DNA of 64,000 nt, from contig MFQZ01000009.1 of NCBI GenBank assembly GCA_001784435.1, positions 11,324 to 75,323 on the forward strand. The letters are read 5' to 3'. Source of the stretch: Candidatus Magasanikbacteria bacterium RIFOXYC2_FULL_42_28 (lineage in GTDB: Bacteria; Patescibacteriota; Patescibacteriia; Magasanikbacterales; GWA2-37-8). Shown in pieces: positions 1-63,742 of this stretch (positions are counted from its first letter, which is position 1; each line of letters starts with the position of its first letter). Below the pieces are notes generated by a model. The model did no database searches and was not told the DNA's origin. It saw only the letters and a program-made list of their open reading frames with translations. The position numbers and the translations under genes were made by a program.

Positions 1-1654
1 GGACGGTAGTGCCATTAACATCCGTACCAACAACTGTAGGTACAATATTATTAGCAGTTGTAGCCCCATCAGCCTGCACATCAATGGCAGAAAAAGTAAG
101 CGCATAACGATCATCATTGCCACCATATGGCGAACCACCACCCAAAGTCGCGCGCGCAACTATTGATTTATTTGTACCTTTTGGAATTGTATATGAGCCA
201 CCACTAAATTTACCAGAATGAAAAACGGCATTACCCGAAGCATCAACCAAAACCGGACCGGCAATTTTGGTAGTCCCGGAATACAAATTAATTTCATTTA
301 TTATATCGCGAGCATTAACAGCGCCTTCAATCGCATTAGCAAAAATACCATCTACATTCTCGTCTATATAAACATGTAGCGTCAAATTTGTTAGCCGAAT
401 ATCTTCGTTTGTGCCAGCTGACAAAAGTAACCCGAGGGAGTCAATACCAGCCGAACCATCATTTATCACCGTTCGAGTTACCGGCGTCGCGGAACGAACA
501 ATAGTGAGACTGCCACTTGGTGGAACAGGCGGAGGCATGCATGCTCCACCTTTACACGTATAACCACTGGCACAAGCTACTTGTGTAGAGCTAGCGAACG
601 TATTAAAACACATTTGCTCTGAAACCGTAGTGGTGTTGACACATGAATCATAATTAGTAGTAAAGACCGTGCCTCCAACACTAATAGAAACCGAACTACT
701 GACCATAGTATTAACCCCGCCATCGCCATCCGTACAAACAATCGGTTTACAAGCACCGGCCACACAGACATCATGAAAAGCACAGGAAGTTGTAACATAA
801 GAAACCGACGAACCGAAACCACAAACTGCTTCTAGCACTCCAATTGAAGGAGTAGACGTAGAAGCACATTTATCCGGCAACGAACTCAAAATATTTCCAT
901 TATTCAAATCAACCACCTTAGCCACCGATGATATATTTACATTACCACCATCAATATCAATACATTTCTTTACCGGGCTATAAACACAACGACCGACACT
1001 ACAACTAAACCCATCCGGACAAGATAACGCAGTTTTAGAAATAACTCCGCCACTACAAGTACCTTCCGAAACTCTACCAGAACCGGTACAAGTGTCCAAA
1101 GTGGAAGAAATCATCCTACCGCCGGACCATAAGGATGTTAGATTTTGACTAATTAAATTCAACCCACCGTCAGGATCAGAACAACCATTCACACACTTAC
1201 CCCCAACTTTTTTCATTCGCGTCGGGCTATAACAAGAATAGGTATAATTACTTGAACCGGAACAACCATTATTAAAATTTTCTGTTAAAGAAATTCCATT
1301 GGCCAGTTGACGACAAGAGCCATTAACGTAAGAATCGGTAAAAGATTTGCTGGTAATGGCGCCAACGCAAGGAGCGCGCCAAATTAAGCGAAAAGTGTTA
1401 TTATTTAGACAAACATAGGTATAACCTTTTCCAGCCGTACAACTATTTAAATATTGCCGTTCCGTGGCCACGCCACCGGCAACAGCGCTACACGATGTTA
1501 CGGTCAAATAAGTTGTTGGTGGTCTAATAGGCGCGACTGCCAAAGCCACATTGCCGGCAACAGCCAAAGCCAAAGTCGCCACTGCCAATTTTAATTTCGT
1601 GACGCTACCAGTTTTTACCAGCGTCATTGTGCCCATTGTGTCGGCTGTGTCCAT
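1..1654 (-). CDS. Cysteine-rich repeat secreted/surface protein (N-terminal 551 aa; gene runs off the window start)
   Basis: Hand translation of the minus strand from ATG 1654..1652 shows no stop through position 1. It is absent from the ORF track because it is open at the window edge. The N-terminal hydrophobic anchor is LKLAVATLALAVAGNVALAVA, followed by repeated ~50-aa Cys-rich modules (C..DxDGG..N..C). Confidence 0.55.
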   Translation of the reverse strand, partial: MDTADTMGTMTLVKTGSVTKLKLAVATLALAVAGNVALAVAPIRPPTTYLTVTSCSAVAGGVATERQYLNSCTAGKGYTYVCLNNNTFRLIWRAPCVGAITSKSFTDSYVNGSCRQLANGISLTENFNNGCSGSSNYTYSCYSPTRMKKVGGKCVNGCSDPDGGLNLISQNLTSLWSGGRMISSTLDTCTGSGRVSEGTCSGGVISKTALSCPDGFSCSVGRCVYSPVKKCIDIDGGNVNISSVAKVVDLNNGNILSSLPDKCASTSTPSIGVLEAVCGFGSSVSYVTTSCAFHDVCVAGACKPIVCTDGDGGVNTMVSSSVSISVGGTVFTTNYDSCVNTTTVSEQMCFNTFASSTQVACASGYTCKGGACMPPPVPPSGSLTIVRSATPVTRTVINDGSAGIDSLGLLLSAGTNEDIRLTNLTLHVYIDENVDGIFANAIEGAVNARDIINEINLYSGTTKIAGPVLVDASGNAVFHSGKFSGGSYTIPKGTNKSIVARATLGGGSPYGGNDDRYALTFSAIDVQADGATTANNIVPTVVGTDVNGTTV

Positions 1655-1705
1655 ATATTTTAAAGTTAATCCCATAAAAATGGGTAATAAATTTAATTTG
1701 CGTAT

Positions 1706-1736
1706 ATTATAACACAAATGCCCCCCCCCAGCACAA
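1706..1736 (-). promoter_or_regulatory. Candidate sigma70 promoter of the 1..1654 gene with a G9 homopolymer in the spacer (phase-variable?)
   Basis: Read on the minus strand the sequence is TTGTGC-t-GGGGGGGGG-catttgtgt-TATAAT. The extended -10 TGtTATAAT is at 1706-1716, the -35-like TTGTGC at 1731-1736, and C9 at 1721-1729 on the plus strand. The spacer is 19 nt, which is suboptimal and changes with tract length. Confidence 0.4.
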
Positions 1737-1801
1737 TGAATTTTAAACAAGACGGTGGATAACTTTTTTTGATACTAAAATTTCTACATTAAAAAATCAA
1801 A

Positions 1802-2161
1802 CTAAAACGGCACCTCATCTTCAAGCACTTCATCTAAAGTCGTAGAATTCATACACCGACCATCATAACAAATCGGCAATTCGGTCGGACAAGTAAATAC
1901 CGAACTGGAAACAACTGGCATTGGTGAATTTGGGGCGCAATAATATTCCAATAAATTTCTATCATCTATACACTCATCTCTTTCGGTGGATATCAAAGCA
2001 TCGTTGAGATAACTTTTTGTATAACCTCGCTCACCTAAATTTTTGCCTGTATCTAAATCTTGACAACGGTGGACATTAATTGGAGTCGTAGTATTTACAC
2101 ATGCACCATCTACACAAAAAGGAGCACCAGCCGGGCAACGATACATACTATAATTAGCCAT
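1802..2161 (-). CDS. Small cysteine-rich protein, translationally coupled to the upstream gene
   Basis: ORF track 1802..2245. The likely true start is MANYSMYRC at 2161, where the ATG overlaps the TAA of the upstream gene (ATGGCTAA). It has repeated C..DG.C motifs and no obvious signal peptide. Confidence 0.4.
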   Translation of the reverse strand: MANYSMYRCPAGAPFCVDGACVNTTTPINVHRCQDLDTGKNLGERGYTKSYLNDALISTERDECIDDRNLLEYYCAPNSPMPVVSSSVFTCPTELPICYDGRCMNSTTLDEVLEDEVPF

Positions 2162-2947
2162 ATATAGAAGGGCCGCTATAAGAACCGGCTGATTCAAACA
2201 ACATGGCCTCGATATCACTGCTATGCGCCAAAGTGGTGGTACCAACTAAACAATATTGCTCATATACAGCTCGATCGCCAGCGCACCAATCAACGCGTGG
2301 GGGCTCAAGATCAAAATGACTACCAAAACCCATTTCATAGTTGACTGCTTCTCCCTTGTAGTACAGATTCGCCCCACCATCACTATCGCGACACCGCCGA
2401 TGTTCAGGCGGATAACTAGTTAAACATTTTCCATGATAACAACCATAGGGAAGACAACGGTGTGTTGTGGTGTTAATGTCAGTGCCGGCAGTATTACAAG
2501 ATGCCTCAACTAAATCAAAAAAATTTTTACAAACATCCGCCACAGATATTCCGCCTATTACAGTAGAAGTGCCAGCAACACTATAATCATAACCACTTGG
2601 GTTATCTTCGTCAGTATTTATACAACTCACCCGACATGACCTAGAACACACCTTGTATGATTTGACCGATTCGCAAGAGTAATAATTTGATTTCTCACGT
2701 GGTGATTTAGTACGACATCTGTTATCTAAAAAAACTGGTGCACCGGAAAATGATGAGCGTCTTATATAAATTCCGTGTAACGCTGTAGTGCAAGACGCCA
2801 CCTTATATTTTACACAACCACTCATCGGAATAATTTTTGCTGGTGTAACCGCCAACACCGCCACATTCGCCGCGAGTAGCGCGAACGTCGCAACCATTAA
2901 TTTAGTATAAGTAATCGTGCTGGTTTTAACGGATGTGACAGTTTCCA
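2154..2947 (-). CDS. Cysteine-rich secreted protein
   Basis: ORF track 2154..3035. The probable start is METVTS at 2947, followed by a signal peptide (MVATFALLAANVAVLAVTPA). The mature part is rich in Cys pairs. Confidence 0.5.
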
Positions 2948-3016
2948 TATTTTTTTCATCAGTAATTAATTTTGAAAAAAGCATAAAAAATTTATTAAAG
3001 AAGGCCAGAGTCAGCC

Positions 3017-7048: not shown

Positions 7049-7055
7049 CGAGCGA

Positions 7056-7176
7056 AATGTCAAATTTCCAATTTCCAATGTCAAACCAAATCCAAATTTC
7101 AAATAACAAATACCGAATTTGACATTTTTACTTTGACATTGATTGGAAATTGGAAATTTGGATTTTGAAATTATCA
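7056..7176 (+). repeat. Long palindromic AATTTCCAATTTCCAATGTCAAA...TTTGACATTGGAAATTTGGATTTTGAAATT element (family 2)
   Basis: ~120 bp imperfect hairpin starting 8 nt after the rlmH stop. Four other copies occur at 12119, 19341, 43964 and 62441. Confidence 0.7.
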
Positions 7177-7179
7177 CAA

Positions 7180-7205
7180 GTTTGATTACACAAGCGTAAT
7201 CAAAC
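7180..7205. repeat. Family 3 palindrome GTTTGATTACACAAGCGTAATCAAAC
   Basis: Identical to 6441-6466. It brackets the rlmH and family 2 element segment. Confidence 0.6.
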
Positions 7206-7247
7206 TGTGGATAACTCTGGGTATAAGTCGCCTTTTCTGTGGATAAC
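7206..7247. promoter_or_regulatory. Two perfect DnaA boxes (TGTGGATAA, the reverse complement of TTATCCACA)
   Basis: Boxes at 7206-7214 and 7239-7247, 33 bp apart, followed by an AT-rich stretch at 7260-7380. Confidence 0.5.
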
Positions 7248-7395
7248 ACTTCGCTAATTTTAGCCAAAAAATATTTTCGGCAATAAAAAACTAAATTTGT
7301 ATACACAAGCGTATACAAATTTTTTGATATTTTAAACACTTTTAATCAATAATTTGGCTAATATATAACAAAAACTGCTCGCCTGCCCCACCCCC

Positions 7396-7424
7396 TTGAC
7401 AAAACTATAAATATGTGCTATAAT
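7396..7424 (+). promoter_or_regulatory. Consensus sigma70 promoter (TTGACA-17-TATAAT)
   Basis: TTGACA at 7396-7401, a 17-nt spacer, and TATAAT at 7419-7424. Confidence 0.6.
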
Positions 7425-7430
7425 ATCTTT

Positions 7431-7760
7431 GTAGTTCATTCTACAATTCAAGTTTCACTTCTGTGAAACACCCTCACGAAACTGCCATTTATGACAAGAA
7501 ATGGACTTATCACTGTAAAAACTTCAAAAAACAGCTAACAGTGATAATCCGCACTTCTTGCCTGGTATCCCCAATTTTACATTCGTCTGCGTTTTCCGCG
7601 ACAAATGTCCGGGGTAATACCTCTCAGGTGGTCGGAGGGTAACTCTGTCCGATGATTGACATTTTTCCCTAACGGGATTGATATCTCGTCGCGATGGTTT
7701 TACTAAAGGGCTAGAGCCTTAAAATTATTTTTATCGGGTCACTATGCCCTTTTTTTAATC
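7431..7760 (+). ncRNA. Long (~330 nt) structured 5' leader or ncRNA candidate upstream of the VIT-like transporter (riboswitch-like?)
   Basis: No ORF longer than 15 aa. It contains GC-rich paired segments (GTCCGGGGTAATACC...GGTCGGAGGGTAAC...GTCCGATG), a palindrome GTTTCACTTCTGTGAAAC, and ends in a hairpin plus T7 run (GCCCTTTTTTT at 7746-7757) just before the start codon. Confidence 0.25.
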
Positions 7761-7786
7761 CAATTTTTTTGGTATACTTATCTCAT

Positions 7787-15712: not shown

Positions 15713-16828
15713 CTACTGCCGTATCGGCATCACAATATACAAATAACTCTCATCTTTCTCCGGCGCGAGTACGCACGGGCTGTCGGCGTTAATCATCTTC
15801 ATGTACACCCGCTCACCGCGGATGCCATTGAGGCCATCCAACAAATAGCGATGGTTTAAGTTGATATTATTTTCTTCACCCACAATATCCGCGCTAATTT
15901 GGGAACTATATTCGCCGGTTTGGGTGGACGATGACGCGAGCGCGACGCTCTCGCCGGCGAATTTAAATACTACCGCATTAACACCGGTCGTAGAAAACAA
16001 ACTGGCGGCTTTTATTTCTTTGGTTAACTGCGCCAAAGACATACCAGCAGTAGTTTTAAAATCCTTGGGAATAATTTGAGTGTAATCCGGATATTTTCCG
16101 TCCACTAAACGCGACACTAATTGCGCGCCATCGTAATGAATCACTAATTGATTTTCATTAATTAAAATCCGCACGTTTTTTTCCGCTTCTGAGCTGGCCG
16201 CGGATAATAGATGATGGATTTCTTGCGCCGTGCGTCCAGGCACAATTGCTGAAAATGATTCTTCGCCTTGGGTTAATTTAATTTTTTTCTCGGCCAAGCG
16301 ATAACTGTCGGTGGAGGCCATGACAAGCCCTTTAAAACCTTCGGGGTTAAATGAGAAAAACACCCCGGATAATTCCGGACGAATATCGTTGCGCGCGAGC
16401 GCGGGGGTAACTTGCGCCAAACCATTTTTAAAATCTTCGGCTGACACGGTAAAACCATGGCCGTCTTTACTTTGAGGAACAACCGGGAAATCATCGGCCG
16501 GCGAACCCTTAATTTTGGTAGTGGCGCGATCACAGGTTACCACCAGTTCATTATTTACCAACTCCAAATCCACTTTTTCACCCGACAAGAAATTTACAAA
16601 ATCGGCCAATGTTCGTGCCGGCACGGTAAACTGACCTGGCTCATCCACCTTGGCTCGCAAATACGCCACCATTGCCAATTCTAAATTAGTGGCGACTATT
16701 TCCACGGTTTGGGTGTCGGCTTTAATTAAAACATTTCCCAAAATCGGCAGATTAATATTTTTTCCCGCTATCCCACCCACGAGAGATAACACGAGCGCTA
16801 AATTGTCCTTGGTGCATGATAATTTCAT
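15713..16828 (-). CDS. dnaN: DNA polymerase III beta sliding clamp
   Basis: 371 aa in three-domain beta-clamp layout. The N-terminus MKLSCTKDNLALVLSLVGGIAGKNINLPILGNVLIKA is typical. Confidence 0.9.
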   Translation of the reverse strand: MKLSCTKDNLALVLSLVGGIAGKNINLPILGNVLIKADTQTVEIVATNLELAMVAYLRAKVDEPGQFTVPARTLADFVNFLSGEKVDLELVNNELVVTCDRATTKIKGSPADDFPVVPQSKDGHGFTVSAEDFKNGLAQVTPALARNDIRPELSGVFFSFNPEGFKGLVMASTDSYRLAEKKIKLTQGEESFSAIVPGRTAQEIHHLLSAASSEAEKNVRILINENQLVIHYDGAQLVSRLVDGKYPDYTQIIPKDFKTTAGMSLAQLTKEIKAASLFSTTGVNAVVFKFAGESVALASSSTQTGEYSSQISADIVGEENNINLNHRYLLDGLNGIRGERVYMKMINADSPCVLAPEKDESYLYIVMPIRQ

Positions 16829-16832
16829 ATAA

Positions 16833-17088
16833 TTTATTTATTTTTTGGTAGTGTATTGGTTTATTATATCTAATTAATAGTAATAATAAGGGTGGGGATA
16901 GTGGGGATAATTTCGTTTTTTATTTTATCTTAGCCAATTTAGGAGTGGATAATTTTTTTTATTTTTTAATAACTATGATGTGAGTTTGGGGATAACTATT
17001 TGGGTTTGTTTATTTTAAAAATTTGGTGGGGATAGAGGTGTGAGGGTGGGGATAAACTATACGAGTTATCAACAAAGTTATACACAAT
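16833..17088. promoter_or_regulatory. oriC-like region: cluster of six or more DnaA boxes (TGGGGATAA / GTGGATAA) with an AT-rich unwinding stretch
   Basis: GGTGGGGATAGTGGGGATAA, AGTGGATAA, TTGGGGATAA and GGTGGGGATAG...GGTGGGGATAA lie between dnaN and dnaA. An AT-rich stretch is at 16905-16980. Confidence 0.6.
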
Positions 17089-18462
17089 CTAAACATTATT
17101 AATGTATAATTTTTGCTTAATTAAGTCAATCTCTTGCTTTAATTTAATATCATTTTCTACCTCTCTTTTGATTTTTTCATAAGCATGCATAGCGGTAGTG
17201 TGGTCGCGTCCGCCCAATTCGTCACCAATGGTGGGAAACGAGGTTTTTAATTCTTCGCGCAACATAAACATGACAATTTGGCGCGGGTTAGACAAGCGCT
17301 TTTCCCTATTTTTACTGGTAATTTCATCAAAATTCACATTATAAAACTCACAAACAGCATCAATTACTTGGCGAGGAGCCACCGCATGGCGCATGGAACC
17401 GACAGATAGGCCGGTTAAGAGTGTTTTGATTGATTCTTCGTTTGGTTCCAGGTGTTTTAGGTCGTGGTAAGCGATAATTTTGTTAAGCGCGCCTTCTAAT
17501 TCGCGGATATTGCTTTGGATGGACAGGGCGATTAATTTAATTAATTTTTCTTCTAAAGGAAAGTTTTTTTCAATGGTTTTTTTTCCTAAAATCGCTACGC
17601 GGGTTTCAAAATCAGGCGCCGCCACATCCACGATCATCCCCCACTCAAAACGTGATTTTAAACGGTCTTCCAAGGCCGGAATGGCTTTGGGTGGTCGGTC
17701 AGAAGTTAGGATTACTTGTTTGTTGGCTTGGTGCAGTTCATTAAAAGTGTGGAAAAATGATTCTTGGGTGCCGTCTTTGCCGGCGATAAACTGGATATCG
17801 TCAATTAACAGCGCGTCGGCGGTCCGATAATGATCTTGAAAATTTTTGGCCTCGCCCCCTTTCATTGACGAAATGTAATCATTGGTGAATTTTTCCGCGC
17901 TCACATAGACAATTTGATAATGGGGATTTTTTTTGATTATTTCATTGCCGATTGCTTGGAGCAGGTGGGTTTTGCCTAAACCAACGCCACCGTAGATGAA
18001 AAGCGGGTTGTAGGCCTCGCCCGGGCGATTAGAAACAGCTTGGGCGGCCGCAAACGCGAGCTCAGTGCCACGGCCGACCACAAAATTATCAAAACTATAT
18101 TTGGGATTAAGAGTAAAGCCACCGCTAGTTGGTGTGGTTGCCGGTTTGGTTACGGTCTCGGGTGGTATTTCGGTGTTGGGGGCGGGCGCGGCGCAGGCCT
18201 CGGCAATATTTTTGATGCTATCTATTTTGTATTCTAATTTTTTAATCGGTTTTTCTGTTACTCTTTCTAATGATTTGATAATATGATGATGATATTTTTT
18301 TTCAATCCAGGCCTGGCTGAATGTGCTCGGAACGCAAACCACTACCTGGCCTTCTTGCAGGGTGGTAATGCCGGTATTTTTAAACCAAGTGTTAAAATTG
18401 GCCTTGGAAACCATTAATTCCAGTTCGGCGAGGACGGCTTGCCAGATTTCAAGGTTATTCAT
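17089..18462 (-). CDS. dnaA: Chromosomal replication initiator DnaA
   Basis: GGVGLGKTHLLQAIGNE, the Walker B/sensor regions, and a C-terminal DNA-binding domain ending in the HTH. Confidence 0.95.
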   Translation of the reverse strand: MNNLEIWQAVLAELELMVSKANFNTWFKNTGITTLQEGQVVVCVPSTFSQAWIEKKYHHHIIKSLERVTEKPIKKLEYKIDSIKNIAEACAAPAPNTEIPPETVTKPATTPTSGGFTLNPKYSFDNFVVGRGTELAFAAAQAVSNRPGEAYNPLFIYGGVGLGKTHLLQAIGNEIIKKNPHYQIVYVSAEKFTNDYISSMKGGEAKNFQDHYRTADALLIDDIQFIAGKDGTQESFFHTFNELHQANKQVILTSDRPPKAIPALEDRLKSRFEWGMIVDVAAPDFETRVAILGKKTIEKNFPLEEKLIKLIALSIQSNIRELEGALNKIIAYHDLKHLEPNEESIKTLLTGLSVGSMRHAVAPRQVIDAVCEFYNVNFDEITSKNREKRLSNPRQIVMFMLREELKTSFPTIGDELGGRDHTTAMHAYEKIKREVENDIKLKQEIDLIKQKLYINNV

Positions 18463-18570
18463 AGAAAAATCATTTATAGTGTTCGTATTTTACCATGAAA
18501 ACAAAGTTATCCACAACCACGGATAATTCCGTTTTTTGGCTTAATTGGGGATAAGTTGGGGATAAGTGTT
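18463..18570. promoter_or_regulatory. Second DnaA-box cluster upstream of dnaA (TTATCCACA at 18507-18515, TGGGGATAA x2 at 18546-18565)
   Basis: A perfect consensus box plus two variants. This is the typical dnaA autoregulatory/origin arrangement. Confidence 0.55.
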
Positions 18571-18617
18571 ATAATATCAAAATATAAATATCAAAAATCA
18601 AAATTCGACCGTTGGGC

Positions 18618-18646
18618 TTGACAAAACCACAAAAATGTGATATAAT
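18618..18646 (+). promoter_or_regulatory. sigma70 promoter (TTGACA-17-TATAAT) for rpmH-rnpA-yidD
   Basis: TTGACA at 18618-18623 and TATAAT at 18641-18646. Confidence 0.6.
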
Positions 18647-18677
18647 AAAGGGGTGATTATTAAAAATATTCAAAAAT

Positions 18678-18854
18678 ATGGTGAAACGTACATATCAGCC
18701 AAAGAAACGCAAACGTTCTAAATCCCATGGTTTTAGAAAACGTATGAAAACCAGCGCCGGTCGGGCGGTTTTGGCTCGTCGTCGTGCCAAAGGACGCAAA
18801 AAATTAACTGTTTCCGATGAAAAGAAAGGCAAATTGTTGCGTAAAAGCCGTTAA
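18678..18854 (+). CDS. rpmH: 50S ribosomal protein L34 (with a C-terminal extension)
   Basis: [45 protein letters not shown]..., 58 aa. It is not in the track because it is under 60 aa. Confidence 0.8.
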
Positions 18855-18934
18855 AATTACTAAAATTAGCGAAAAATCCGGTTTTATGCCGGATTTTGTT
18901 TTTGGATGGTGTTTTGTGTGGTATAATATAATAT

Positions 18935-19339
18935 ATGTTAACCGATCAATATCGTTTAAAAAAAGTGCGGGATTTTAATATGCTCATGGAGCGTGGACGC
19001 TGGGCAGGCGGGGCGCTTTTTACAGTTAAATGGCTTAAATTAGCGGACCCTGGCATCAGATTGCCAAAGGCAATCGGTGCAGGGCCAGAATTGAAAAAAT
19101 TTATAGAGCAATTGCGTTTTGCTTTTGTGGTGGGTTTGAAGGTGAGTAAAAAGGCGGTTGAGCGCAATCGCTTGAAACGTCAGATGCGGGAGGTTGTTAG
19201 ATTGATGATTAAGGATGGGCGAGTTAAAAGCGGGTTTTATGTGATGGTGGTAGCGAAGGGCGAGGCGCTGGGGAAAGAGTATGGTAAAATTGAGAAAGAA
19301 ATTGAGGGTTTATTAAAGAGGATCGGCGTGGCAAGTTAA
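18935..19339 (+). CDS. rnpA: Ribonuclease P protein component
   Basis: 134 aa, basic, located just after rpmH. The RNR-like motif KKAVERNRLKRQMRE is present. Confidence 0.75.
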   Translation: MLTDQYRLKKVRDFNMLMERGRWAGGALFTVKWLKLADPGIRLPKAIGAGPELKKFIEQLRFAFVVGLKVSKKAVERNRLKRQMREVVRLMIKDGRVKSGFYVMVVAKGEALGKEYGKIEKEIEGLLKRIGVAS

Positions 19340-19340
19340 T

Positions 19341-19452
19341 AATGTCAAATTTCCAATTTCCAATGTCAAATCAAATCCAAAGCTCAAATTACGAATTTGA
19401 CATTTTGATTTTGACATTGATTTGACATTGGAAATTTGGATTTTGAAATTAA
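19341..19452 (+). repeat. Family 2 long palindromic element
   Basis: AATGTCAAATTTCCAATTTCCAATGTCAAATCAAATCCAAAGCTCAAATTACGAATTTGACATTTTGATTTTGACATTGATTTGACATTGGAAATTTGGATTTTGAAATT. It starts 2 nt after the rnpA stop and ends 1 nt before the yidD ATG. Confidence 0.7.
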
Positions 19453-43963: not shown

Positions 43964-44066
43964 ATGTCAAATTTCCAATTTCCAATGTCAAATCAAAGCC
44001 AAAATGACAAATTTGACATTTTTATTTTGACATTGATTGGAAATTGGATATTTGGATTTTGAAATT
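43964..44066 (+). repeat. Family 2 long palindromic element
   Basis: It starts immediately after the holA TGA as AATGTCAAATTTCCAATTTCCAATGTCAAATCAAAGCC...TTTGACATTGATTGGAAATTGGATATTTGGATTTTGAAATT. Confidence 0.7.
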
Positions 44067-47245: not shown

Positions 47246-47458
47246 GGTCCAATATGGTAATTATCAACCTATTATCATTTGGCAAGTAAAAAATATTTTT
47301 CTTAAACTCTGATCATTTAAATTTTTTTAATGGTATCACCGGTGTCCTTGATGCCAAGTTTTGGAAAATTTATTTTATAAAATTAGCTTACCCCGACGCT
47401 GTCGGTCGGGGTCAATTTGATCTTGCGATCAGATTGAAAGTTATACACAGTTTTTTAT

Positions 47459-47487
47459 AAGAAAAAAATTAGATTGTGTGCTATAAT
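47459..47487 (+). promoter_or_regulatory. Extended -10 promoter (TGcTATAAT) for the 47534 gene
   Basis: TGTGCTATAAT at 47477-47487, with a weak -35. Confidence 0.35.
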
Positions 47488-47533: not shown

Positions 47534-49837
47534 ATGTTTCAGAAACAGTTGGCAAAATTTTTTGAGTTTGGGTCGTATATTTTATTGTTGTTATCAGTAT
47601 TGTTGGTGCCGATGGCCATTGATAACCAGCTGGTGAATTCGTATATCATACCAAAACAGTATGTATTAGGGGGATTGGTTTTGCTCGCGGCATTATTTTG
47701 GGCGGCGCGGGCGGTAGTAACTAAAAAGGTTTCTTATATTCAATCATTTGCCGACAAGCCCTTGATTTTATTTCTGTTAGTCGCTTTACTCACGGCAATT
47801 TTTTCTGCCAATCGTAGCAGTTCGTTTTTAGGAGTGGCTGATTATTATATTTTGAGTTTTGCGTCTTTTGTGGTTTCGGTGCTTTTTTATTTTTTAATTG
47901 TTAATCATTTCACCACGGCCAAACGTTGGCGTCTCGGCGTTGATTTGACGGTATTAGTTGGTGGTGTTTCGGCAACGTTATTTTTATTGCGCACTGTTTT
48001 TAATTTTGATGTTTTGTCTAAGTTGGGGATCTCGGCCTGGAATCTGATTGACCCAACTAACACCGCGTTTGGAATTTGGCTCGTTGCTATTTTTATGCTT
48101 TCGGCCGGTCAATTAATCAAGAAAAATTGTCCGGTCGGTCGGTCGTTGTTTAATTTTTTTGTGGCTTTGCTCGCGGTGGCGTGTCTCTTAACTTTAGGGT
48201 TTGATGTTTTGTGGTGGGTGTTGTTGATTGGTTTAGCGTTGCTGTTATTGTTAGGTGTAACATTTTTGCGTGAAGCGCGTTTGGGGTGGTTGACGGTTTT
48301 GTTTGCTCTGCTTGTTACCGATATAATTTTTATCACTTTTAATTCGCCTAAAGTTTTACAGACCAGCGTGCCGGTAGAAGTGGCGCTGGGCGCGCGACCA
48401 TCTTGGGATGTTACCAGCGCGACGCTTGGAGGCGGGGTAAAGAGTTTTCTTTTGGGTTCCGGTTTGGGTACTTTTGGCGTGGATTTTTCTCGTTATCGCA
48501 GTGTGGATTTTAACAACGACCCAGTCGCGTGGTCATTGCGTTTTAATCAACCGTTTAATACTTTATTGGCATTTTTGTCAGAGGGCGGGTTGTTGCTGGC
48601 GTTGGCGTTTGTTTTTGTGGTGGTCTTTTTCTTGGGGCATATTTTGTATGTCTGGCTTGGGCAAAGAGCGGAAGTAATGTTTGGCGGGTTGTCCGGAGAT
48701 TTGGGTTGGAAGTCCGGAGATTTGCGGTTTGAAATATTTTTAGTGTCTTTGGTTTGGGTGCTACTGACTATTTGCACGGGGTTTGCTTTTTTTGGACAAA
48801 GTTTGTGGTGGTTGTGGTGGTTTTTGCTTGGACTTTCCGCCAGCGGTTTGGGTTTTATTTATTCTAAGGCACATAATTTGCGCGAGTGGGAAATAGAAGA
48901 CGCGCCGCAATATAGCTTGTCCTTTTCTTTTATTTTAGTGGTATTGTCAGCCGGGATTGTAATGTCGGGGGTGATTGGGGCGCGAATGTATATGGCGGAA
49001 CGAGCGTACGCGGTCGCGGTTAGAGCCGATGATTTGGATACAGTAGAAATAAATTTAAAAAAGGCGATTAGTTTGCGTGATAATTACAGTGTTTATAATT
49101 TTTATATGGCGCGCTTGTTTTTGTCTCGGGCGGTTGAAGCCAGTAAAAATTCCAATCCAGACCCCGCGGTAATAAGCGCGCTTATGAGTAACGCGGTAAA
49201 TACCGCTCGTCGCGCTACCGATATCGCGCCGGCATCGGTGGGGTTGTGGGAAAATTTAGCCACGATGTATGAAAACGCGGCAGTGATAGTGCCGGAAGCG
49301 CGTGATTGGGCGGTGAAATCTTGGATGAAATGTACTGAATTAGAGCCCACCAACCCGGTCTTGTGGTTGCGACTGGGGAATAATTATTTGGCGAGCGGGA
49401 ATAACGAAGACGCGAAGAAAAGTTTTGAGGAGGCGATAAAATTAAAATCTGATTATGTCGTCGCGAGCATTTCTTTGTCGCAGATTTATGAGACCGAACA
49501 GAATTTTGAAAAGGCGGTTGAAATATACGAAAAAATTATGACCATAGCCGGCAATAACGCGGAGGTGGCTTATAACTATGGTCGTTTGTTGTATAACCGC
49601 AATGCCAAAGGTGATCGCGACGGGGCCGAACAGATTTGGCTAAAAGTGATTGAAGCGCAACCGAATTTCTCCAATGTTTTGTATAGTTTGGGGATGTTGT
49701 ATGAAACGCGTGGCGATAAATATAAAGCGTTAGATTATTATTATCAAGTAAAAGAATTAAATCCGGATAACAAAGATATCACAGCGAAGATTAAATCACT
49801 CGTCGGTGTACCGGTGGCTGAAGTCAATAAAAAATAA
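47534..49837 (+). CDS. O-antigen-ligase-like (Wzy_C) polytopic membrane protein with C-terminal TPR repeats
   Basis: ~12 TM helices with a large periplasmic loop are followed by TPR-like repeats (AEVAYNYGRLLYNRN...VLYSLGMLYETRGDKYKALDYYYQ). Confidence 0.6.
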   Translation: MFQKQLAKFFEFGSYILLLLSVLLVPMAIDNQLVNSYIIPKQYVLGGLVLLAALFWAARAVVTKKVSYIQSFADKPLILFLLVALLTAIFSANRSSSFLGVADYYILSFASFVVSVLFYFLIVNHFTTAKRWRLGVDLTVLVGGVSATLFLLRTVFNFDVLSKLGISAWNLIDPTNTAFGIWLVAIFMLSAGQLIKKNCPVGRSLFNFFVALLAVACLLTLGFDVLWWVLLIGLALLLLLGVTFLREARLGWLTVLFALLVTDIIFITFNSPKVLQTSVPVEVALGARPSWDVTSATLGGGVKSFLLGSGLGTFGVDFSRYRSVDFNNDPVAWSLRFNQPFNTLLAFLSEGGLLLALAFVFVVVFFLGHILYVWLGQRAEVMFGGLSGDLGWKSGDLRFEIFLVSLVWVLLTICTGFAFFGQSLWWLWWFLLGLSASGLGFIYSKAHNLREWEIEDAPQYSLSFSFILVVLSAGIVMSGVIGARMYMAERAYAVAVRADDLDTVEINLKKAISLRDNYSVYNFYMARLFLSRAVEASKNSNPDPAVISALMSNAVNTARRATDIAPASVGLWENLATMYENAAVIVPEARDWAVKSWMKCTELEPTNPVLWLRLGNNYLASGNNEDAKKSFEEAIKLKSDYVVASISLSQIYETEQNFEKAVEIYEKIMTIAGNNAEVAYNYGRLLYNRNAKGDRDGAEQIWLKVIEAQPNFSNVLYSLGMLYETRGDKYKALDYYYQVKELNPDNKDITAKIKSLVGVPVAEVNKK

Positions 49838-54400: not shown

Positions 54401-54562
54401 GGGCGGTATAACTTTTTGGCCGGTGATAATAAGTATTATGTTACCTATGAGCATGAAAATTACGAGACGACTAAGACCGATGTACTGGATTTAACCGGTA
54501 AAGAAGAGGACGCGATCGCGACAGACGCGAAGTTAAAAAAGAAAGATTTATCCACAGAGTAA
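51428..54562 (+). CDS. Large surface protein with a myxo-type Cys-rich repeat, fibronectin-III-like domains, an Asp/Cys-rich module, CarbopepD_reg-like domains and C-terminal TM segments
   Basis: CGNGAVEGDEACDAGSSNGLCSATCSTSC matches CxxGxxExxExCDxG...C. Three segments resemble Fn3 (VSWNATDNNG.., ISFDTNELTT.., LSWDLPDSPY..). The Asp/Cys module is DCDNGDVDDDGDGDADCGDLDSC. Three DEHGRY/DKHGRY beta-sandwich units are present. Confidence 0.55.
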   Translation: MFSPKKIFFTILTAVLAVGLSTASLVLAETQTGGLTVGVTIGSDAVCGNGAVEGDEACDAGSSNGLCSATCSTSCTVKATTDCGGGGDTDNSPTISNVTTTLITVNSATVSWNATDNNGISTSTFVYGIDINYGSSATISGSNPYSVNLFGLSANTVYYFQISVTDTGSHTVESTGSFTTLSTAVGDTIPPNIFNVIVSPIGVTMATISFDTNELTTAQIKFSSDFSYASSTALDAVLATTHTISVLGLWPDTTYHFQIIANDEPNNTTTTLDATFTTLPAPAVADVGHFELSPSFEAITLSWDLPDSPYYDHIILNRQVTGDPATLVELPVDPLDSLFIDYGIDFNINYTYTIYVVDIFDQQSQGVSVNGEVLAFGLEDCDNGDVDDDGDGDADCGDLDSCFSHPHCVIEEVCHDENGDGLENCDDPSCAGNAVCLALHEDEICGNLFNDNGDDFESDCEDPDCAGFPDPQCVLFDVVACSDQQDNDGDGQIDFGNDTGCVSAGDNDESDDTVPSFLQLNVNDIKFFAGNRQIPLAPVNEVVSSLAGSNFTVAVAPAITPQAVTLVLEGATYQFGFNAVDNIYYSDFTLPFVGVHSAYLNIDYGNGQQDSVLIKINCLPWGQVESGGELIAGVEMFLLDTNNEKIYLGEYGQTNPVLTSASGLYGWSVLPGHYLVRANKEGFYERTVQIYEVKNNSINANIDLIKMPTNWLGAIDAARGLALQAVNDVADNPAVEQVAQQVVAPVAVGVSAVGTILVVPWWNLLALLRFLFLQPLLLIGRGKRKQWGMVYNSLSKMPIDLAIVRLFDATTGKLLRSRVTDEHGRYAFIMPPGKYRLQVVKMNMTFPSVLLAGITHDGNRPDIYHGEEIIVNEKNVLITANVPLDPSGDGKTPKRILRERFWRKVQSGVSGLGLVFTLVALYISPRWYMWVLAGAHIGLMLVFRRLAKPKTAKGWGIVSDTVTSKPVGRTVARLFDTKFNKLVATEVTDKHGRYNFLAGDNKYYVTYEHENYETTKTDVLDLTGKEEDAIATDAKLKKKDLSTE

Positions 54563-54602
54563 TTTTATTAAAAATGTGGTATAATATATGGAAGAGAAGT
54601 GA

Positions 54603-57600
54603 GTGATTATGGCAATTATAGGATTGAAAAATTTATTAAAATTATCAAGCCGAATTTTTGTAATATCCGCCATATTTTTGTCCGCAATTTTTAGTTTATG
54701 GTTATGGCAAAATAGCGCGGTCGCGGCGATCGCGCCATCAGTAATTACTTACCAAGGTAAAGTATTAGTAAGCGGTTCACCAGCGTCATCTACTTTATCA
54801 ATGAAGTTTGTTTTGTATGACTCTTTAACTGGTGGCACTGCGCTCTATACTGCTTCCGGCACTTTGCCAACCACGAGCACAATTAGTATTACTCCTTCCA
54901 GTGGTATATTTAGTGTTGATCTTGGTGGTAGTGGTACAAACACGATTGATCCAACTATTTTTCAAAATAACAGTAGTGTATATTTAGAAGTAACCATCGG
55001 CAGTCAAACCCTTACCCCCCGAAAACAAATCACTGCCGCTCCTTATGCTTTCAACGCTAAATATCTAGATGGTCTCGCCACTTCATCATTCGCCAAACTT
55101 GGATCCAATGAAACGGTTACCGGCACTTGGACCTTTTCGGCAACCACGACTATGGTCACGACGACGGTGAGTGGGAGGTTAGGTATTGGGACGACCACGC
55201 CAGATCAAGCGTTGACAGTGGTGGGGAGTATTAGTAATCCGGTGAATGGGAATTCTGGGATAACAGAAATTGCGACTCTATCAACAGGTAACGACCCGTT
55301 TGCGATATTTGTCTCTGGTCGGTATGCTTATGTGGCCAATTCTGCTTCTAGCACCATGACTATAATTGATATTTCTAAACCAACCGTGCCGGTGCAGGTA
55401 GCAACAGTTTCTGTCGGAAATTCACCGCGTTCCGTATTTGTTTCTGGTCGTTATGCGTATGTTGGAAATTATGGACATGGCACTATATCCATCGTGGACG
55501 TGTCTAATCCATTTTCTCCTGTTGTTGTTGCTACCCAGCAGGATTTGCCGGGTATCCCATCTTCTATTTTTATCTCCGGTCGGTATTTGTATACCACCTT
55601 ACAAGGCCAAGATATCTTGGCGGTTGTTGATATATCAGATCCGCTGACTCCGGTTTTGGCTGCGGCTGTCACTGTCGGTGATTACCCACAATCAGTTTTT
55701 GTCTCCGGTCGTTATGCTTATGTGGCGAATAGAGCATCCGGCACCATTTCTGTGGTTGACATATCTAATCCTTTGTCTCCAGTCCAAATTGCCACGACCT
55801 CTGTTGGTGTTTGGCCTAGTTCTATAGCTGTCTCTGGTCGTTATGCTTATGTGGCCCATGATTCTGATTTGTTTATTTCTGTAGTGGACGTGTCTAACCC
55901 CGCTATCCCAGTTCAAGTGGCTACCACCTCTGTCGGTTTTGTACAGTCGTCCGTATTTGTTTCCGGTCGTTATGCGTATTTTAGCACGGGTATTACTGCA
56001 AATGATTTAGGCAATCTTTCGGTTGTGGATATTTTAAATCCGTTGGTACCGGTTTTAGTGGCAACTACGCCGGTTGGAAAAAATCCACAATCAGTTTTTG
56101 TCTCCGGTCGTTATGCTTATGTGGCTAATGCGGGGCCTCTTGCGGGCAATGGTGGGGAAAATACTATTTCCATCATCGATCTCTCCGGCGCCGAATTTTC
56201 CACCCTAATCGCCCACTCCGCCGAAGTCGGCCAAATCCAATCGCGCAATGACATCATCGCTCAAGGCATAGTTGGCGCCAACAGTTTACAAATCGGCAGT
56301 GGTGGTATCCTCTCTAACGGGCCCATCAGTATCACCGCCACCGATACCTATTCTTACTTCGGCGGTGGCATTACCGCCACCGGCACAGTAACCACTACTA
56401 ATTTGGCGGTCATCGGCAATGCCACTTTTGGTGGCACATTGTCGCTGGGCAATACCGACATCACCGGCAATCTTACTGTCTCCGGCAACGCTACTACCAC
56501 TGGTAATCAAGTAATATCCGGCACACTTAATATTTCCGGCACTTCCACTCTCGTTACCACCACTGCCACTGCCTTAACTGTCACTGGCACATCAACTTTA
56601 ACAAATATTTCATCCACTGGCATTTCCAATCTAGGCACTTTAAACGTTTCTGGCAGTACCATTCTTTCTGGCACATTAAATGTAACCGGCACATCAACTT
56701 TGGCCACTACCACCATTTCCAAATTAACCATTAGCAGTCAAGGTATTATTATTTCCAGTAGCACTCCGGTCGTTACTTCTTCCACTTTGTATAATGTTGG
56801 TGACACCCTTTATTGGAACGGCAACGCCTTATCAACCTCTACTGGTAGCGGTTTGCCGTCTAGTATTGATGGCCAAATTTTATTCTCCGCTGGTTCTACT
56901 TGGACCGCGACTTCGGCGATTAGTATTGTGAGTACAACTGGTAATGTTGGTATCGGTACCACCAACCCAGGTACTTTGCTCACAGTCCACAACACCAATA
57001 TCGCTTCGGCCACTTCTTCCACTTTAAAACAATCATATTTATCAGTTGACCAAATGGCCTTGTCACAATTAGAAGGTGGAGCATATTTTGGCCGAACAAA
57101 AATAAAAAATAATAATTGGGTAGTTCAAGTAGCGGATAATTTTGTTTTGAGTGAGGCACCGTTATCTATGAAGGGTTCGGCTGGTTCGGCTGATGGGGAA
57201 ATTTTAGCAATAGTTTTAGATGGCAATCAAATCGGGCTGTTTTCCGGTTTTGATGCTGATGTTCAATTGGTGGCTAGCGTTCAAAATTGGGAGGATATCG
57301 CGATGTCCGTTGATGGTAAAATTATGTCGGCTGTGATTGATAATGGCGGGATTCATCGTTCCATTGATTATGGCGCCACTTGGGCGACCTCATCCGCTTT
57401 GACAAAAAATTGGACAGGTATTGCAATGTCGGCCGATGGTAAATATCAAACGGCCGTGGCCACCGGTGATAGCGTTTATATTTCTGCTGATTTTGGTGTT
57501 ACCTGGATCGCCAAAGACAGCAGTCGCGCTTGGACCGGTGTGGCCATGTCATCGGACGGTAAATTACAAATTGCCACTGTTTCAAGCACCGGCAATATTT

Positions 57601-62551: not shown

Positions 62552-63742
62552 CTATACTTTTTTGAACCTCCAAATCTCCCGCCCTACTCGCTGTCCCGGC
62601 CGGCCATACAACAAGTATGGCTTTTTTTGTTGAAGCGAGACCGTTTTAAATCCTAAATTATTTATTTCCGATTCGCAATTAATCGTGATCCACTGCCCGC
62701 GTGAAAAAAAACGGGGAATAATAAAAATTACTGTGCCATCTTTTTTTAACAATTTTGTAAACGCGCGAAAAGCATTTAAATACAAGGTTTTTAATTCGCC
62801 AACTTGTAATCGTAACTCGCTTTCGCTTTCACGTCCGGTTAATGGTTTTCCTAAATATGATTCGGTGATGATTGTGTCAATTGAATGGGGTTTTATTTTT
62901 TTCTCTAAATTATCAATATCAATATTGTAAATTGGAAATTGAGAATTGATTGGAAATTTGAAATTTGAAATTGGAAATTGCCGTGCCGTCCACTCCACAT
63001 TTTTTCGTGTATCCGCTATCGCTTTTTCAGATATATCACTCCCGATTAAATTTTTATAACCCAAAATCATCGCCTCGGTCAAAATTGTCCCCGAACCACA
63101 AAATGGATCGAGCAAGGTCGCGTCCAAATCTGCTTGCGCCAAATTTATCATCATCATCGCCAACTTCGGCGGCAACATGCCCGAAAAATCATCGCGTCCC
63201 GGTCGTCCAAAGTCGCGCGCGCCTAATTCTTCAAACGGTTGAATGGCAATTGTTTTGGCCAAAGCAAAACCGTCAGCAGTTTTGGTGATTAAAAACTCCC
63301 GTCCTTTAGTAGTGAGTTGGTTGTGAAATACGGTTGCCGAAGATAACTGGTTATGTTCATCGCTCGGCACATAACGCACTGACAGGCCATTCTTTTTCAA
63401 TTCTTTTTTTATGTCCAAGGCAAATGGCTTAACGCCAATTTGTCCGGACTTATCATATAAACTGATGCCAAAATGGATTTTGCCGGTAATGGTTTGCAGT
63501 TCTGCAATAATTTTTTCTTTTAATTCGTTTTCTGTTAATTCCGAGCCGACCTCTTCGGCGATCTTAATTGTTCCGCCTAAACGTTTAATTAAATCGGTTT
63601 CCACGGCCGTATTAATTTTTAAAATATTTTCCGCCAAAAATTTAACCGCTTCATTTGGTAATTTTAAAACCGTGGTGATTTCCGCCGTGGATATTTCCGG
63701 TTCTCGTCCTAAAACAAACCAAGTGAAATTATTTTTTTTCAT
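62552..63742 (-). CDS. THUMP-domain RNA methyltransferase (Trm14/RlmL/TrmN-like, class I SAM MTase)
   Basis: The N-terminal THUMP-like region is followed by SAM motif I LLDPFCGSGTIL and the catalytic region. The ATG is at 63742. Confidence 0.65.
   Translation of the reverse strand: MKKNNFTWFVLGREPEISTAEITTVLKLPNEAVKFLAENILKINTAVETDLIKRLGGTIKIAEEVGSELTENELKEKIIAELQTITGKIHFGISLYDKSGQIGVKPFALDIKKELKKNGLSVRYVPSDEHNQLSSATVFHNQLTTKGREFLITKTADGFALAKTIAIQPFEELGARDFGRPGRDDFSGMLPPKLAMMMINLAQADLDATLLDPFCGSGTILTEAMILGYKNLIGSDISEKAIADTRKNVEWTARQFPISNFKFPINSQFPIYNIDIDNLEKKIKPHSIDTIITESYLGKPLTGRESESELRLQVGELKTLYLNAFRAFTKLLKKDGTVIFIIPRFFSRGQWITINCESEINNLGFKTVSLQQKKPYLLYGRPGQRVGREIWRFKKV
62925..62990. repeat. 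Family 2 repeat fragment (GGAAATTGGAAATT units) embedded in-frame in the methyltransferase gene
   Basis: AAATTGGAAATTGAGAATTGATTGGAAATTTGAAATTTGAAATTGGAAATT encodes QFPISNFKFPINSQFPIYN on the minus strand. Confidence 0.45.

What the first reader, a model, noticed from the sequence alone, without database searches (positions are those of the whole stretch)
1690..1760. Poly-G(9) tract inside the promoter spacer of a Cys-rich surface protein gene (candidate phase-variation switch)
A run of nine G (minus strand; C9 at 1721-1729) sits between a -35-like TTGTGC and an extended -10 TGtTATAAT, upstream of the 1..1654 surface-protein gene. This gives a 19-nt spacer; losing one or two G would give optimal 17-18 nt spacing. 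Homopolymer slippage in promoter spacers is a classic ON/OFF mechanism for surface antigens. A 9-mer G tract is conspicuous in this AT-rich DNA.
Basis: partly seen in the sequence, partly recalled or inferred. Interest (0 to 1): 0.7.

Follow-up and report, generated by a model that had tools for sequence, protein, structure and literature searches.

The report
Conserved variable poly-G promoter tract
A run of nine G's lies in the promoter of a secreted cysteine-rich protein gene of an uncultivated groundwater bacterium (Candidatus Magasanikbacteria), and related species keep a G-run at exactly the same spot with other lengths (5, 10, 11), so it is a credible but unproven slippage-driven expression dial, a mechanism not yet reported for this group.

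Summary
C9 lies at 1721-1729 (G9 on the minus strand), between TTGTGC and TGtTATAAT with a 19-nt spacer, 67 nt upstream of the true ATG (1654) of a secreted Cys-rich protein gene.

On its own the tract is not statistically remarkable: 34% of simulated windows contain one. Comparative data make it real. The promoter cassette (TTATCCAC box, upstream segment, Gn, 9 nt, TGnTATAAT, hairpin leader, ATG) recurs upstream of the orthologous gene in two other Magasanikbacteria lineages, with G10/G11 and G5. The flanking sequence is only about 50% identical and the neighbouring genes differ.

Among near-identical species-2 assemblies the only indel is in the tract (G11 in four haplotypes, G10 in one). 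All five species-1 assemblies are clonal and G9.

The -35/-10 ON/OFF model fits less well. The genome's own promoters use exactly 17-nt spacers, while observed alleles give 19-21 nt. TTGTGC matches the consensus at 3 of 6 positions and is absent in the G5 lineage. What is conserved is the box-to-(-10) distance of 43-45 nt. This favours a Bordetella fim-like or rheostat mechanism acting on an extended -10 promoter.

No read-level or expression evidence exists. Verdict: a plausible new member of a known kind, and the first candidate in CPR bacteria.

The parts
1721..1729 (-). Poly-G tract (G9; C9 on the + strand), the length-variable element
   Evidence: It is G9 in all five species-1 assemblies. 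The homologous position holds G11 or G10 in species 2 and G5 in species 4.
1706..1714 (-). Extended -10 element TGtTATAAT (TATAAT = 1706-1711)
   Evidence: TGNTATAAT occurs 13 times against 3.86 expected, mostly upstream of genes. It is conserved as TGgTATAAT in species 2 and species 4, and as TGtTTTAAT in L005.
1712..1720 (-). Fixed 9-nt segment between the tract and the -10 (CATTTGTGT; contains a TRTG-type -16 motif)
   Evidence: The length is exactly 9 nt in all three lineages: CATTTGTGT, CGAGTGTGG and TAAATGTGG.
1731..1736 (-). TTGTGC hexamer (-35-like, 3 of 6 match to TTGACA), 19 nt upstream of TATAAT
   Evidence: It is identical in species 2 and not conserved in species 4. The 19-nt spacer lies outside the 17 nt used by this genome's promoters.
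1755..1762 (-). TTATCCAC box (matches the DnaA-box consensus TTATCCACA at 8 of 9; a perfect 9-mer in species 2 and species 4), 43 nt upstream of TATAAT
   Evidence: 8 copies in the window against 1.94 expected. It lies exactly 18 nt 5' of TTGTGC in species 1 and species 2. The box-to-(-10) distance is 43, 44, 45 and 44 nt across alleles and lineages.
1655..1705 (-). Predicted 5' leader (51 nt from the -10 to the ATG) containing the hairpin CCCAUUUUUAUGGG (1671-1684)
   Evidence: MFE -7.1 kcal/mol, z = -1.9. The species-2 leader is also 51 nt with an equivalent hairpin (z = -2.5) and one C-G to U-A double change.
1..1654 (-). 5' part of the regulated gene (full length 891 aa; identical to P0001, a hypothetical protein of Cand. 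Magasanikbacteria RIFOXYC2_FULL_42). It has an N-terminal hydrophobic signal or anchor, Cys-rich C-x-D-x-D-G-G-x-N modules and repeated beta-rich C-terminal domains.
   Evidence: The start at ATG 1654 is supported by homologue N-termini. There is no Pfam or NCBIfam hit. The Cys-rich module is shared with about 400 proteins.
1802..2948 (-). Upstream paralogous Cys-rich gene, split into two reading frames (2154-2948 and 1802-2161). Its stop codon at 1802 bounds the 147-nt intergenic region that holds the promoter.

Best explanation
The G9 run is a selectively maintained, slippage-prone segment of variable length inside the promoter of a Magasanikbacteria-specific secreted Cys-rich protein gene. 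The core promoter is an extended -10 (TGtTATAAT) without a usable -35.

The tract sits between this -10 and a conserved upstream block: a TTATCCAC box (DnaA-box-like, centred near -60), AT-rich DNA and TTGTGC. Gain or loss of a G by slipped-strand mispairing during replication changes the distance and the helical phase between the upstream block and RNA polymerase at the -10. That would raise or lower transcription of the surface protein in a heritable, reversible way, as a phase-variable or rheostat-like promoter.

Shown here: the anatomy; conservation of the cassette and of the uninterrupted tract; length differences between and within lineages; and a conserved box-to-(-10) distance.

Inferred: that slippage is frequent in this organism, that geometry controls transcription, that a protein binds the box, and that the gene product is surface-exposed.
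For: (1) The cassette recurs upstream of orthologues in three lineages with 38-52% protein identity, in different gene neighbourhoods, always with a G-run ending exactly 9 nt before TATAAT.

(2) Flanking non-coding segments are only 8 of 18 and 5 of 9 identical, yet 9-11 G's remain uninterrupted. The neutral expectation is roughly 0.5^9.

(3) Length is the variable feature: G9 in species 1, G11 and G10 in species 2, G5 in species 4. Among species-2 haplotypes differing by 2-20 SNPs, the only indel is in the tract, and none of 14 other homopolymers of 7 or more changed.

(4) The box-to-(-10) distance is held at 43-45 nt even though the tract ranges from 5 to 11; the upstream segment is 30 nt with G5 and 25 nt otherwise. 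So geometry is under constraint, and single-G changes should matter.

(5) The promoter elements are real for this genome. TGnTATAAT is enriched 3.4-fold. TTATCCAC is enriched 4-fold and also sits 24 and 33 nt upstream of two other extended -10 promoters that lack a -35, spacings that differ by about one helical turn.

(6) The product has an N-terminal signal or anchor and many cysteines. In species 2 the gene lies in a cell-envelope locus with an LTD/InlB-repeat protein, Wzy_C and glycosyltransferases.

(7) A species-2 strain (L005) has the whole promoter replaced from about the transcription start upward by a tract-less ATGACA-16-TGtTTTAAT promoter. Two metagenome contigs (L007, L005) end within about 140 nt upstream of the gene: L007 starts 10 nt before the tract, and L005 starts 99 nt before the point where its sequence diverges. 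This pattern is expected if the site is heterogeneous in populations.

(8) There are known precedents for the mechanism: Bordetella Pfim3 poly(C) (PMC10172299) and Neisseria fetA and porA (PMC5320596).
Against: No read-level data could be examined, so heterogeneity within populations is unproven. Consensus length is stable: five of five species-1 assemblies are G9 (but they carry no SNPs either), and four of the five tract-bearing species-2 haplotypes are G11.

The single G10 allele lies 10 nt from a contig end, where assembly errors are commoner. Species 4 manages with G5, too short to be hypermutable, so a long tract is not required for promoter function.

A perfect extended -10 may drive transcription whatever the tract length, which would limit the dynamic range. 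Only one such tract exists in about 70 kb of species-1 sequence, so there is no evidence of a wider set of such loci. The transcription start, the binding protein and the surface location are all inferred. The mismatch-repair status is unknown.
Confidence: 0.55

Rival explanations
1. One reading: classic -35/-10 spacer phase variation. TTGTGC is the -35, G9 (19-nt spacer) is the OFF or low state, and loss of one or two G's (18 or 17 nt) switches the gene ON.
For: TTGTGC plus one base immediately precedes the tract in both species 1 and species 2. This genome's sigma-70 promoters use 17-nt spacers, so the arithmetic is right. The tract-less L005 variant has ATGACA at 16 nt from the -10 at the equivalent place. 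Precedents are Neisseria porA and fetA (PMC5320596).
Against: TTGTGC matches the consensus at only 3 of 6 positions and is not conserved in species 4. All observed alleles give 19, 20 or 21 nt, so species 2 would be three or four slippage steps from ON. The extended -10 makes a -35 largely dispensable (established knowledge of TGn promoters). The conserved quantity is the box-to-(-10) distance, not the TTGTGC-to-(-10) spacing.
Confidence: 0.2
2. Fixed cis-element. The G-run is a structural or protein-binding part of the promoter (rigid G/C spacer DNA or a recognition element). Its length drifts slowly and neutrally within a tolerated window, and there is no biologically meaningful switching.
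For: Consensus length is constant across five species-1 assemblies and across four of the five tract-bearing species-2 haplotypes. Species 4 keeps a G5 at the same position. The total box-to-(-10) distance stays within 43-45 nt, as expected if deviations are selected against.
Against: A recognition or spacer element would be expected to keep its length, yet it ranges from 5 to 11. G/C runs of 9-11 are intrinsically unstable in every bacterium studied (established knowledge; for example, mixed Pfim3 poly(C) lengths within single cultures, PMC10172299). The one indel among species-2 haplotypes is in the tract.
Confidence: 0.25
3. Chance or neutral homopolymer with no function, tolerated because it is intergenic.
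For: 34% of simulated 64-kb windows contain a G/C run of 9 or more. Homopolymers are expected to survive preferentially outside coding sequence.
Against: The G-run occupies the same anchored position in three lineages while the surrounding sequence is about 50% diverged. The expected frequency per 150-nt intergenic region is about 0.0013.
Confidence: 0.04
4. Translational phase variation. The tract lies inside the coding sequence (GGG GGG GGG = Gly3), with translation starting at an upstream TTG, so slippage would shift the reading frame.
For: The reading frame of the gene is open upstream through the tract to a TTG (L001 13359), read directly. One gene caller started the gene at a TTG inside the promoter, at window 1717.
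Against: The N-termini of P0002, P0003, P0009 and the paralogue all align from the Met at ATG 1654. In species 2, G11 and G10 would be in different frames. In L004 the gene starts 28 nt after the preceding gene, with the same ATG context. The region upstream of the ATG shows promoter and leader conservation, not codon conservation.
Confidence: 0.02

Closest known systems
Bordetella pertussis fim2/fim3 promoters: a poly(C) tract between the BvgA~P binding sites and the -10
   Same: A G/C homopolymer lies just upstream of the -10 of a surface-structure gene. The promoter lacks a conventional -35. A conserved upstream protein-binding site must be correctly positioned relative to RNA polymerase, and single-base length changes alter output (PMC10172299). 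Here the conserved box-to-(-10) distance of 43-45 nt mirrors that logic.
   Different: The activator is unknown; the box resembles a DnaA box, not a BvgA site. The tract is shorter (9-11 against 13-16). No mixed lengths have been shown within a population. The organism is a CPR bacterium from groundwater, not a pathogen. No expression data exist.
Neisseria porA (poly-G), fetA (poly-C) and opc (poly-C) promoter tracts
   Same: A homopolymer between -35-like and -10 elements of an outer-surface protein gene. Tract length differs between strains, and the tract is conserved at the orthologous site across species (PMC5320596; opc from my own knowledge).
   Different: In Neisseria the expressed alleles give 16-18 nt spacers. 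Here all alleles give 19-21 nt, the -35-like hexamer is weak and is not conserved in one lineage, and a perfect extended -10 is present.
Helicobacter pylori sabA promoter T-tract 'rheostat' and Mycoplasma hyorhinis vlp poly(A) promoter tracts (my own knowledge, not checked with tools)
   Same: A promoter-proximal homopolymer tunes transcription of an adhesin or variable surface lipoprotein by changing spacing or helical phase, in small-genome, host-dependent bacteria.
   Different: Those are A/T tracts at different positions (adjacent to the -35, or within a 17-nt spacer), and they are experimentally validated. Here everything is inferred from sequence.

Membership tests
Simple-sequence-repeat (homopolymer) transcriptional phase variation | A homopolymer of hypermutable length (G/C of about 8 or more) located within or immediately upstream of the core promoter | tested here: met
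   G9 ends 9 nt upstream of TGtTATAAT. The promoter is supported by conservation of the -10, the leader and the ATG across lineages.
Simple-sequence-repeat (homopolymer) transcriptional phase variation | Tract length polymorphic between strains or within populations while the flanks are constant | tested here: inconclusive
   Between lineages: 5, 9 and 10/11. Within species 2: one G10 against four G11 haplotypes, and this is the only indel, but the G10 is next to a contig end. Within species 1: five of five are G9, but the assemblies are clonal. No reads are available.
Simple-sequence-repeat (homopolymer) transcriptional phase variation | Tract conserved at the orthologous site despite divergence of the surrounding sequence | tested here: met
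Simple-sequence-repeat (homopolymer) transcriptional phase variation | Length changes alter transcription; switching is frequent and reversible | not testable with these tools
   This needs reporter fusions, in-vitro transcription, or metatranscriptomes paired with read pileups.
Simple-sequence-repeat (homopolymer) transcriptional phase variation | The regulated gene encodes a surface-exposed or surface-modifying product | tested here: inconclusive
   There is an N-terminal hydrophobic signal or anchor, and the protein is Cys-rich and modular. Species 2 places it in an envelope-gene neighbourhood. There is no family hit and the structure model is unusable.
-35/-10 spacer subtype (Neisseria porA/fetA type) | The tract lies between functional -35 and -10 hexamers, and observed alleles bracket the optimal 16-18 nt spacer | tested here: not met
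   Spacers are 19, 20 and 21 nt. The genome's optimum is 17 nt. The hexamer matches 3 of 6 and is absent in species 4.
Activator-distance subtype (Bordetella fim type) | The tract lies between a conserved upstream binding site and the -10, and the site-to-(-10) geometry is constrained | tested here: met
   The TTATCCAC box lies 43-45 nt from the -10 in all lineages despite G5-G11. Binding of any protein is untested.
Translational (intragenic) homopolymer phase variation | Tract inside the coding sequence | tested here: not met
   The start codon is ATG 1654, 67 nt downstream of the tract.
Invertible-promoter phase variation | Inverted repeats bracket the promoter; the alternative orientation is found in other assemblies | tested here: not met
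   No bracketing inverted repeat was found. The L005 alternative upstream sequence has no match on either strand within the 4-6 kb held.
Intrinsic terminator of the upstream gene | A G+C-rich hairpin followed by a T-run | tested here: not met
   The fold of 1700-1800 is no better than shuffled sequence (z = +0.71). No terminator was called at the tract.

The most novel reading that the evidence does not exclude
The TTATCCAC(A) box is a genuine DnaA-binding site, and DnaA (or another box-binding factor) activates a small set of -35-less extended -10 promoters that drive large secreted or surface proteins in Magasanikbacteria: this gene, the 2167-aa LVIVD-repeat protein and the TPR protein. The box would act from positions one helical turn apart. 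In this one promoter a hypermutable G tract has evolved in the linker, so that surface-protein expression is gated both by the replication-initiator state and by stochastic slippage. Such a coupling is not described in any bacterium, and it would be the first contingency locus in the Candidate Phyla Radiation.
Probability: 0.1. Interest if true: 0.75.

Novelty: new member of a known kind. Interest (0 to 1): 0.55.

Why it matters
CPR/Patescibacteria are ultra-small, mostly uncultivated bacteria thought to live attached to host cells, and almost nothing is known about how they regulate or vary their surface. Full-text searches found no report of homopolymer-mediated phase variation in this group.

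If this locus is a true contingency locus, stochastic bet-hedging of surface proteins, a hallmark of host-adapted pathogens and mycoplasmas, would extend to environmental episymbionts. That would point to this Cys-rich protein family as an interface with hosts or phages.

The hypothesis can be tested directly from existing public read sets. The analysis also yields a first sketch of promoter architecture in a CPR genome: canonical TTGACA-17-TATAAT promoters, frequent extended -10 elements, and a class of promoters associated with the TTATCCAC box.

Tried and rejected
(1) An exact-flank, variable-gap scan of JGI metagenome contigs found 0 hits, so the source population is not held there under identical flanks.

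(2) Pfam and NCBIfam scans of both Cys-rich proteins found nothing above threshold.

(3) A word-indexed homologue search with the N-terminal alignment returned only P0002, and a search with P0009 added nothing new. The exhaustive HMMER search was what revealed P0009 and P0015.

(4) AlphaFold2 on P0001 with a 3-sequence alignment gave mean pLDDT 29.7, which is unusable, so no fold search was run.

(5) RNAalifold on a two-sequence leader alignment gave no pairs because the hairpin was mis-registered. Single-sequence folds were used instead.

(6) The look-up of P0008 (the JGI copy of the species-1 protein, on a 250-kb contig) found nothing on record.

(7) The invertible-promoter idea was rejected: there are no bracketing inverted repeats, and no inverted copy of the L005 upstream sequence.

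(8) The terminator or structured-DNA idea was rejected.

(9) The idea that the tract lies within the coding sequence was rejected on homologue N-termini.

(10) A search for other simple repeats that could mark further contingency loci found no pure multi-copy repeat in the window and no other G/C run longer than 7.

(11) Sequencing or assembly artefact was rejected: five species-1 assemblies from at least two runs and three pipelines agree on G9.

Full report
**1. What is there**

The window comes from Candidatus Magasanikbacteria bacterium RIFOXYC2_FULL_42 (CPR/Patescibacteria, Rifle aquifer). The downstream protein is 100% identical to that organism's hypothetical protein P0001.

On the minus strand the region reads TTATCCAC-CGTCTTGTTTAAAATTCA-TTGTGC-T-G9-CATTTGTGT-TATAAT, followed by 51 nt and the ATG. 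In window coordinates:
- G9 = 1721-1729
- TGTTATAAT = 1706-1714
- TTGTGC = 1731-1736
- TTATCCAC = 1755-1762
- ATG = 1652-1654

The gene is partial in the window. The full protein is 891 aa (L001). It has a hydrophobic N-terminal signal or anchor, repeated Cys-rich C-x-D-x-D-G-G-x-N modules and repeated C-terminal domains. It has no Pfam or NCBIfam match.

Gene callers disagree on the start (891, 898 or 912 aa), and the frame is open through the tract. However, the N-termini of P0002, P0003, P0009 and the upstream paralogue all align from the Met at 1654. The tract is therefore non-coding, 67 nt upstream of the start.

**2. Is it more than chance?**

Within the window, no. It is the only G/C run longer than 7, but a first-order Markov model gives 0.1-0.4 such runs per 64 kb, and 34% of simulated windows contain one. 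The promoter scanner does not report the site.

The significance comes from comparison.

**3. Comparative evidence**

The protein has very few relatives: three by word-indexed search. The exhaustive search found about 400 proteins sharing the Cys-rich module, but only P0002, P0003, P0009 and P0015 share the N-terminal region. I recovered the DNA for all of them.

| Lineage | Locus and source | Tract | Notes |
|---|---|---|---|
| Species 1 | window plus four other assemblies | G9 in all five | All 100% identical over up to 15 kb, so clonal and uninformative about mutability |
| Species 2 | RIFOXYD2_FULL_41_14 and four other haplotypes; about 49-52% protein identity to species 1; entirely different neighbouring genes | G11 in four haplotypes differing by 2-20 SNPs; G10 in one (L007) | Same cassette: TTATCCACA-18 nt-TTGTGC-C-Gn-CGAGTGTGG-TATAAT-51 nt-ATG |
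| Species 4 | L020, P0009; 38% identity to species 1, 44% to species 2; directly after the same AAA-ATPase gene as in the window | G5 | TTATCCACA-30 nt-G5-TAAATGTGG-TATAAT, then a 70-nt leader with the hairpin |
| P0002 (L004) | gene 28 nt after the preceding gene | none | No promoter of its own |
| P0015 (L021-23) | gene 44 nt after the preceding gene | none | No promoter of its own |

In species 2, the tract indel is the only indel among these haplotypes. None of 14 other homopolymers of 7 or more changed. L007's contig starts 10 nt upstream of the tract, so an end-of-contig error cannot be excluded.

One species-2 strain (L005) has a 98.8% identical gene. From about the transcription start upward its sequence is different and tract-less: ATGACA-16 nt-TGtTTTAAT. 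That upstream sequence has no match on either strand in the 4-6 kb held.

**4. What the comparison implies**

(a) The promoter is real. The extended -10, the 9-nt segment before it, the leader hairpin (which carries one C-G to U-A double change) and the ATG context are all conserved.

(b) The uninterrupted G-run is under selection. The adjoining segments are only 8 of 18 and 5 of 9 identical, so nine neutral sites would rarely all survive.

(c) Length is the one free parameter: 5, 9, 10 and 11.

(d) The distance from the TTATCCAC box to the -10 is held at 43 nt (species 1), 44-45 nt (species 2) and 44 nt (species 4). In species 4 a 5-nt longer upstream segment offsets the shorter run. Geometry matters, so a slippage event should have a phenotype.

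**5. Which mechanism?**

This genome uses canonical sigma-70 promoters. There are three perfect TTGACA-17/18-TATAAT promoters and several near-perfect ones. TGnTATAAT is enriched 3.4-fold. Every extended -10 promoter with a recognisable -35 has a 17-nt spacer.

Against that standard, TTGTGC at 19-21 nt is misplaced in every allele seen. It matches the consensus at 3 of 6 positions and is missing in species 4.

A second promoter class in the window lacks a -35 but has a TTAT(C/A)CAC box 24 or 33 nt upstream of the -10. These are the promoters of the 2167-aa LVIVD-repeat protein and of a TPR protein. The tract promoter has the box at 43-45 nt, roughly one and two helical turns further.

TTATCCAC is 4-fold enriched in the window. 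It is the DnaA-box consensus, and the window contains dnaA, dnaN and the GC-skew minimum.

I therefore favour an activator-distance or rheostat mechanism, like Bordetella Pfim3 (PMC10172299), layered on a constitutive extended -10. Whether DnaA or any other protein binds the box is inference.

**6. Rivals**

- A fixed structural element with neutral length drift remains credible (0.25), because consensus lengths are stable within species.
- Chance is excluded by conservation.
- Intragenic frameshifting is excluded by the start codon.
- An invertible promoter is excluded by the absence of bracketing inverted repeats.
- A terminator or other structure is excluded by folding (z = +0.71).

**7. 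Novelty**

Promoter homopolymer phase variation is a well-known kind (PMC5320596, PMC10172299, PMC11868660). Full-text searches found no report linking it with CPR or Patescibacteria. A 2025 review of phase variation does not mention the group. The nearest item is a hypervariable intragenic repeat in a Gracilibacterium (PMC6851277).

So this is a candidate new member of a known kind in a phylogenetically new setting. It is supported by comparative sequence evidence only.

**8. Limits**

- There are no reads, no transcription data and no structure (AlphaFold2 pLDDT 29.7).
- Only four lineages exist in public data.
- The single within-species length difference rests on one contig end.
- Only about 70 kb of the species-1 genome was examined for other tracts.

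Noticed in passing
window 15713-18950 (also 7050-7770): The window spans the replication-origin region. It holds dnaA (17089-18462, minus strand) and dnaN (15713-16828, minus strand). Perfect DnaA boxes TTATCCACA lie at 18507-18515 and 16944-16952, with a pair at 7206-7246 in a 720-nt intergenic gap. Tandem GTGGGGATA and TTGGGGATAAG repeats flank dnaA. The cumulative GC-skew minimum is at about 10-16 kb.
   Followed up: partly
window 1802-2948 (minus strand): The Cys-rich paralogue immediately upstream of the tract is split into two reading frames (2154-2948 and 1802-2161) that overlap in an ATGGCTAA start/stop junction, interrupting a Cys-rich module. It is either a frameshifted pseudogene or two translationally coupled ORFs. 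It is identical in all five species-1 assemblies and no homopolymer lies at the junction.
   Followed up: partly
window 47441-47487 and 54548-54585 (+ strand): Two other extended -10 promoters lack a -35 but have a TTAT(A/C)CACA box 33 and 24 nt upstream of TATAAT. They drive a 767-aa TPR protein (47534-49837) and a 2167-aa LVIVD-repeat protein (54603-61106). Together with the tract promoter this may be a box-dependent promoter class.
   Followed up: partly
L005 1-99 versus L006 3859-3958: In one species-2 strain the whole promoter upstream of about the transcription start is replaced by an unrelated or strongly diverged sequence carrying ATGACA-16-TGtTTTAAT and no G tract, while the gene is 98.8% identical. 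The contig ends 99 nt upstream, so the origin of the replacement is unknown.
   Followed up: partly
L006 7117-7225 (Wzy_C / O-antigen-ligase-like gene downstream of the species-2 orthologue): There is a dense cluster of about 30 substitutions between L006 and L005 within about 110 nt of an otherwise 99% identical gene. This looks like a recombination patch or a hypervariable segment.
   Followed up: no
window 7063-7079, 7142-7158, 19348-19364, 43970-43986, 62924-62980: A short heptamer, AATTTCC or its complement ATTGGAA, recurs in tandem copies (2.4 to 8.6 copies), mostly between genes. Its function is unknown.
   Followed up: no
window 58538-58675: A 51-nt tandem repeat (2.7 copies, 78% match) lies inside the 2167-aa LVIVD-repeat protein gene.
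   Followed up: no
window 1671-1684 (minus strand) and equivalents in L006, L005 and L020: A small hairpin (CCCAUUUUUAUGGG) is conserved in the 5' leader about 17 nt before the ATG, with one compensatory C-G to U-A change between species. It may be an mRNA-stability or translation-control element. The scan also flagged it as terminator-like.
   Followed up: partly
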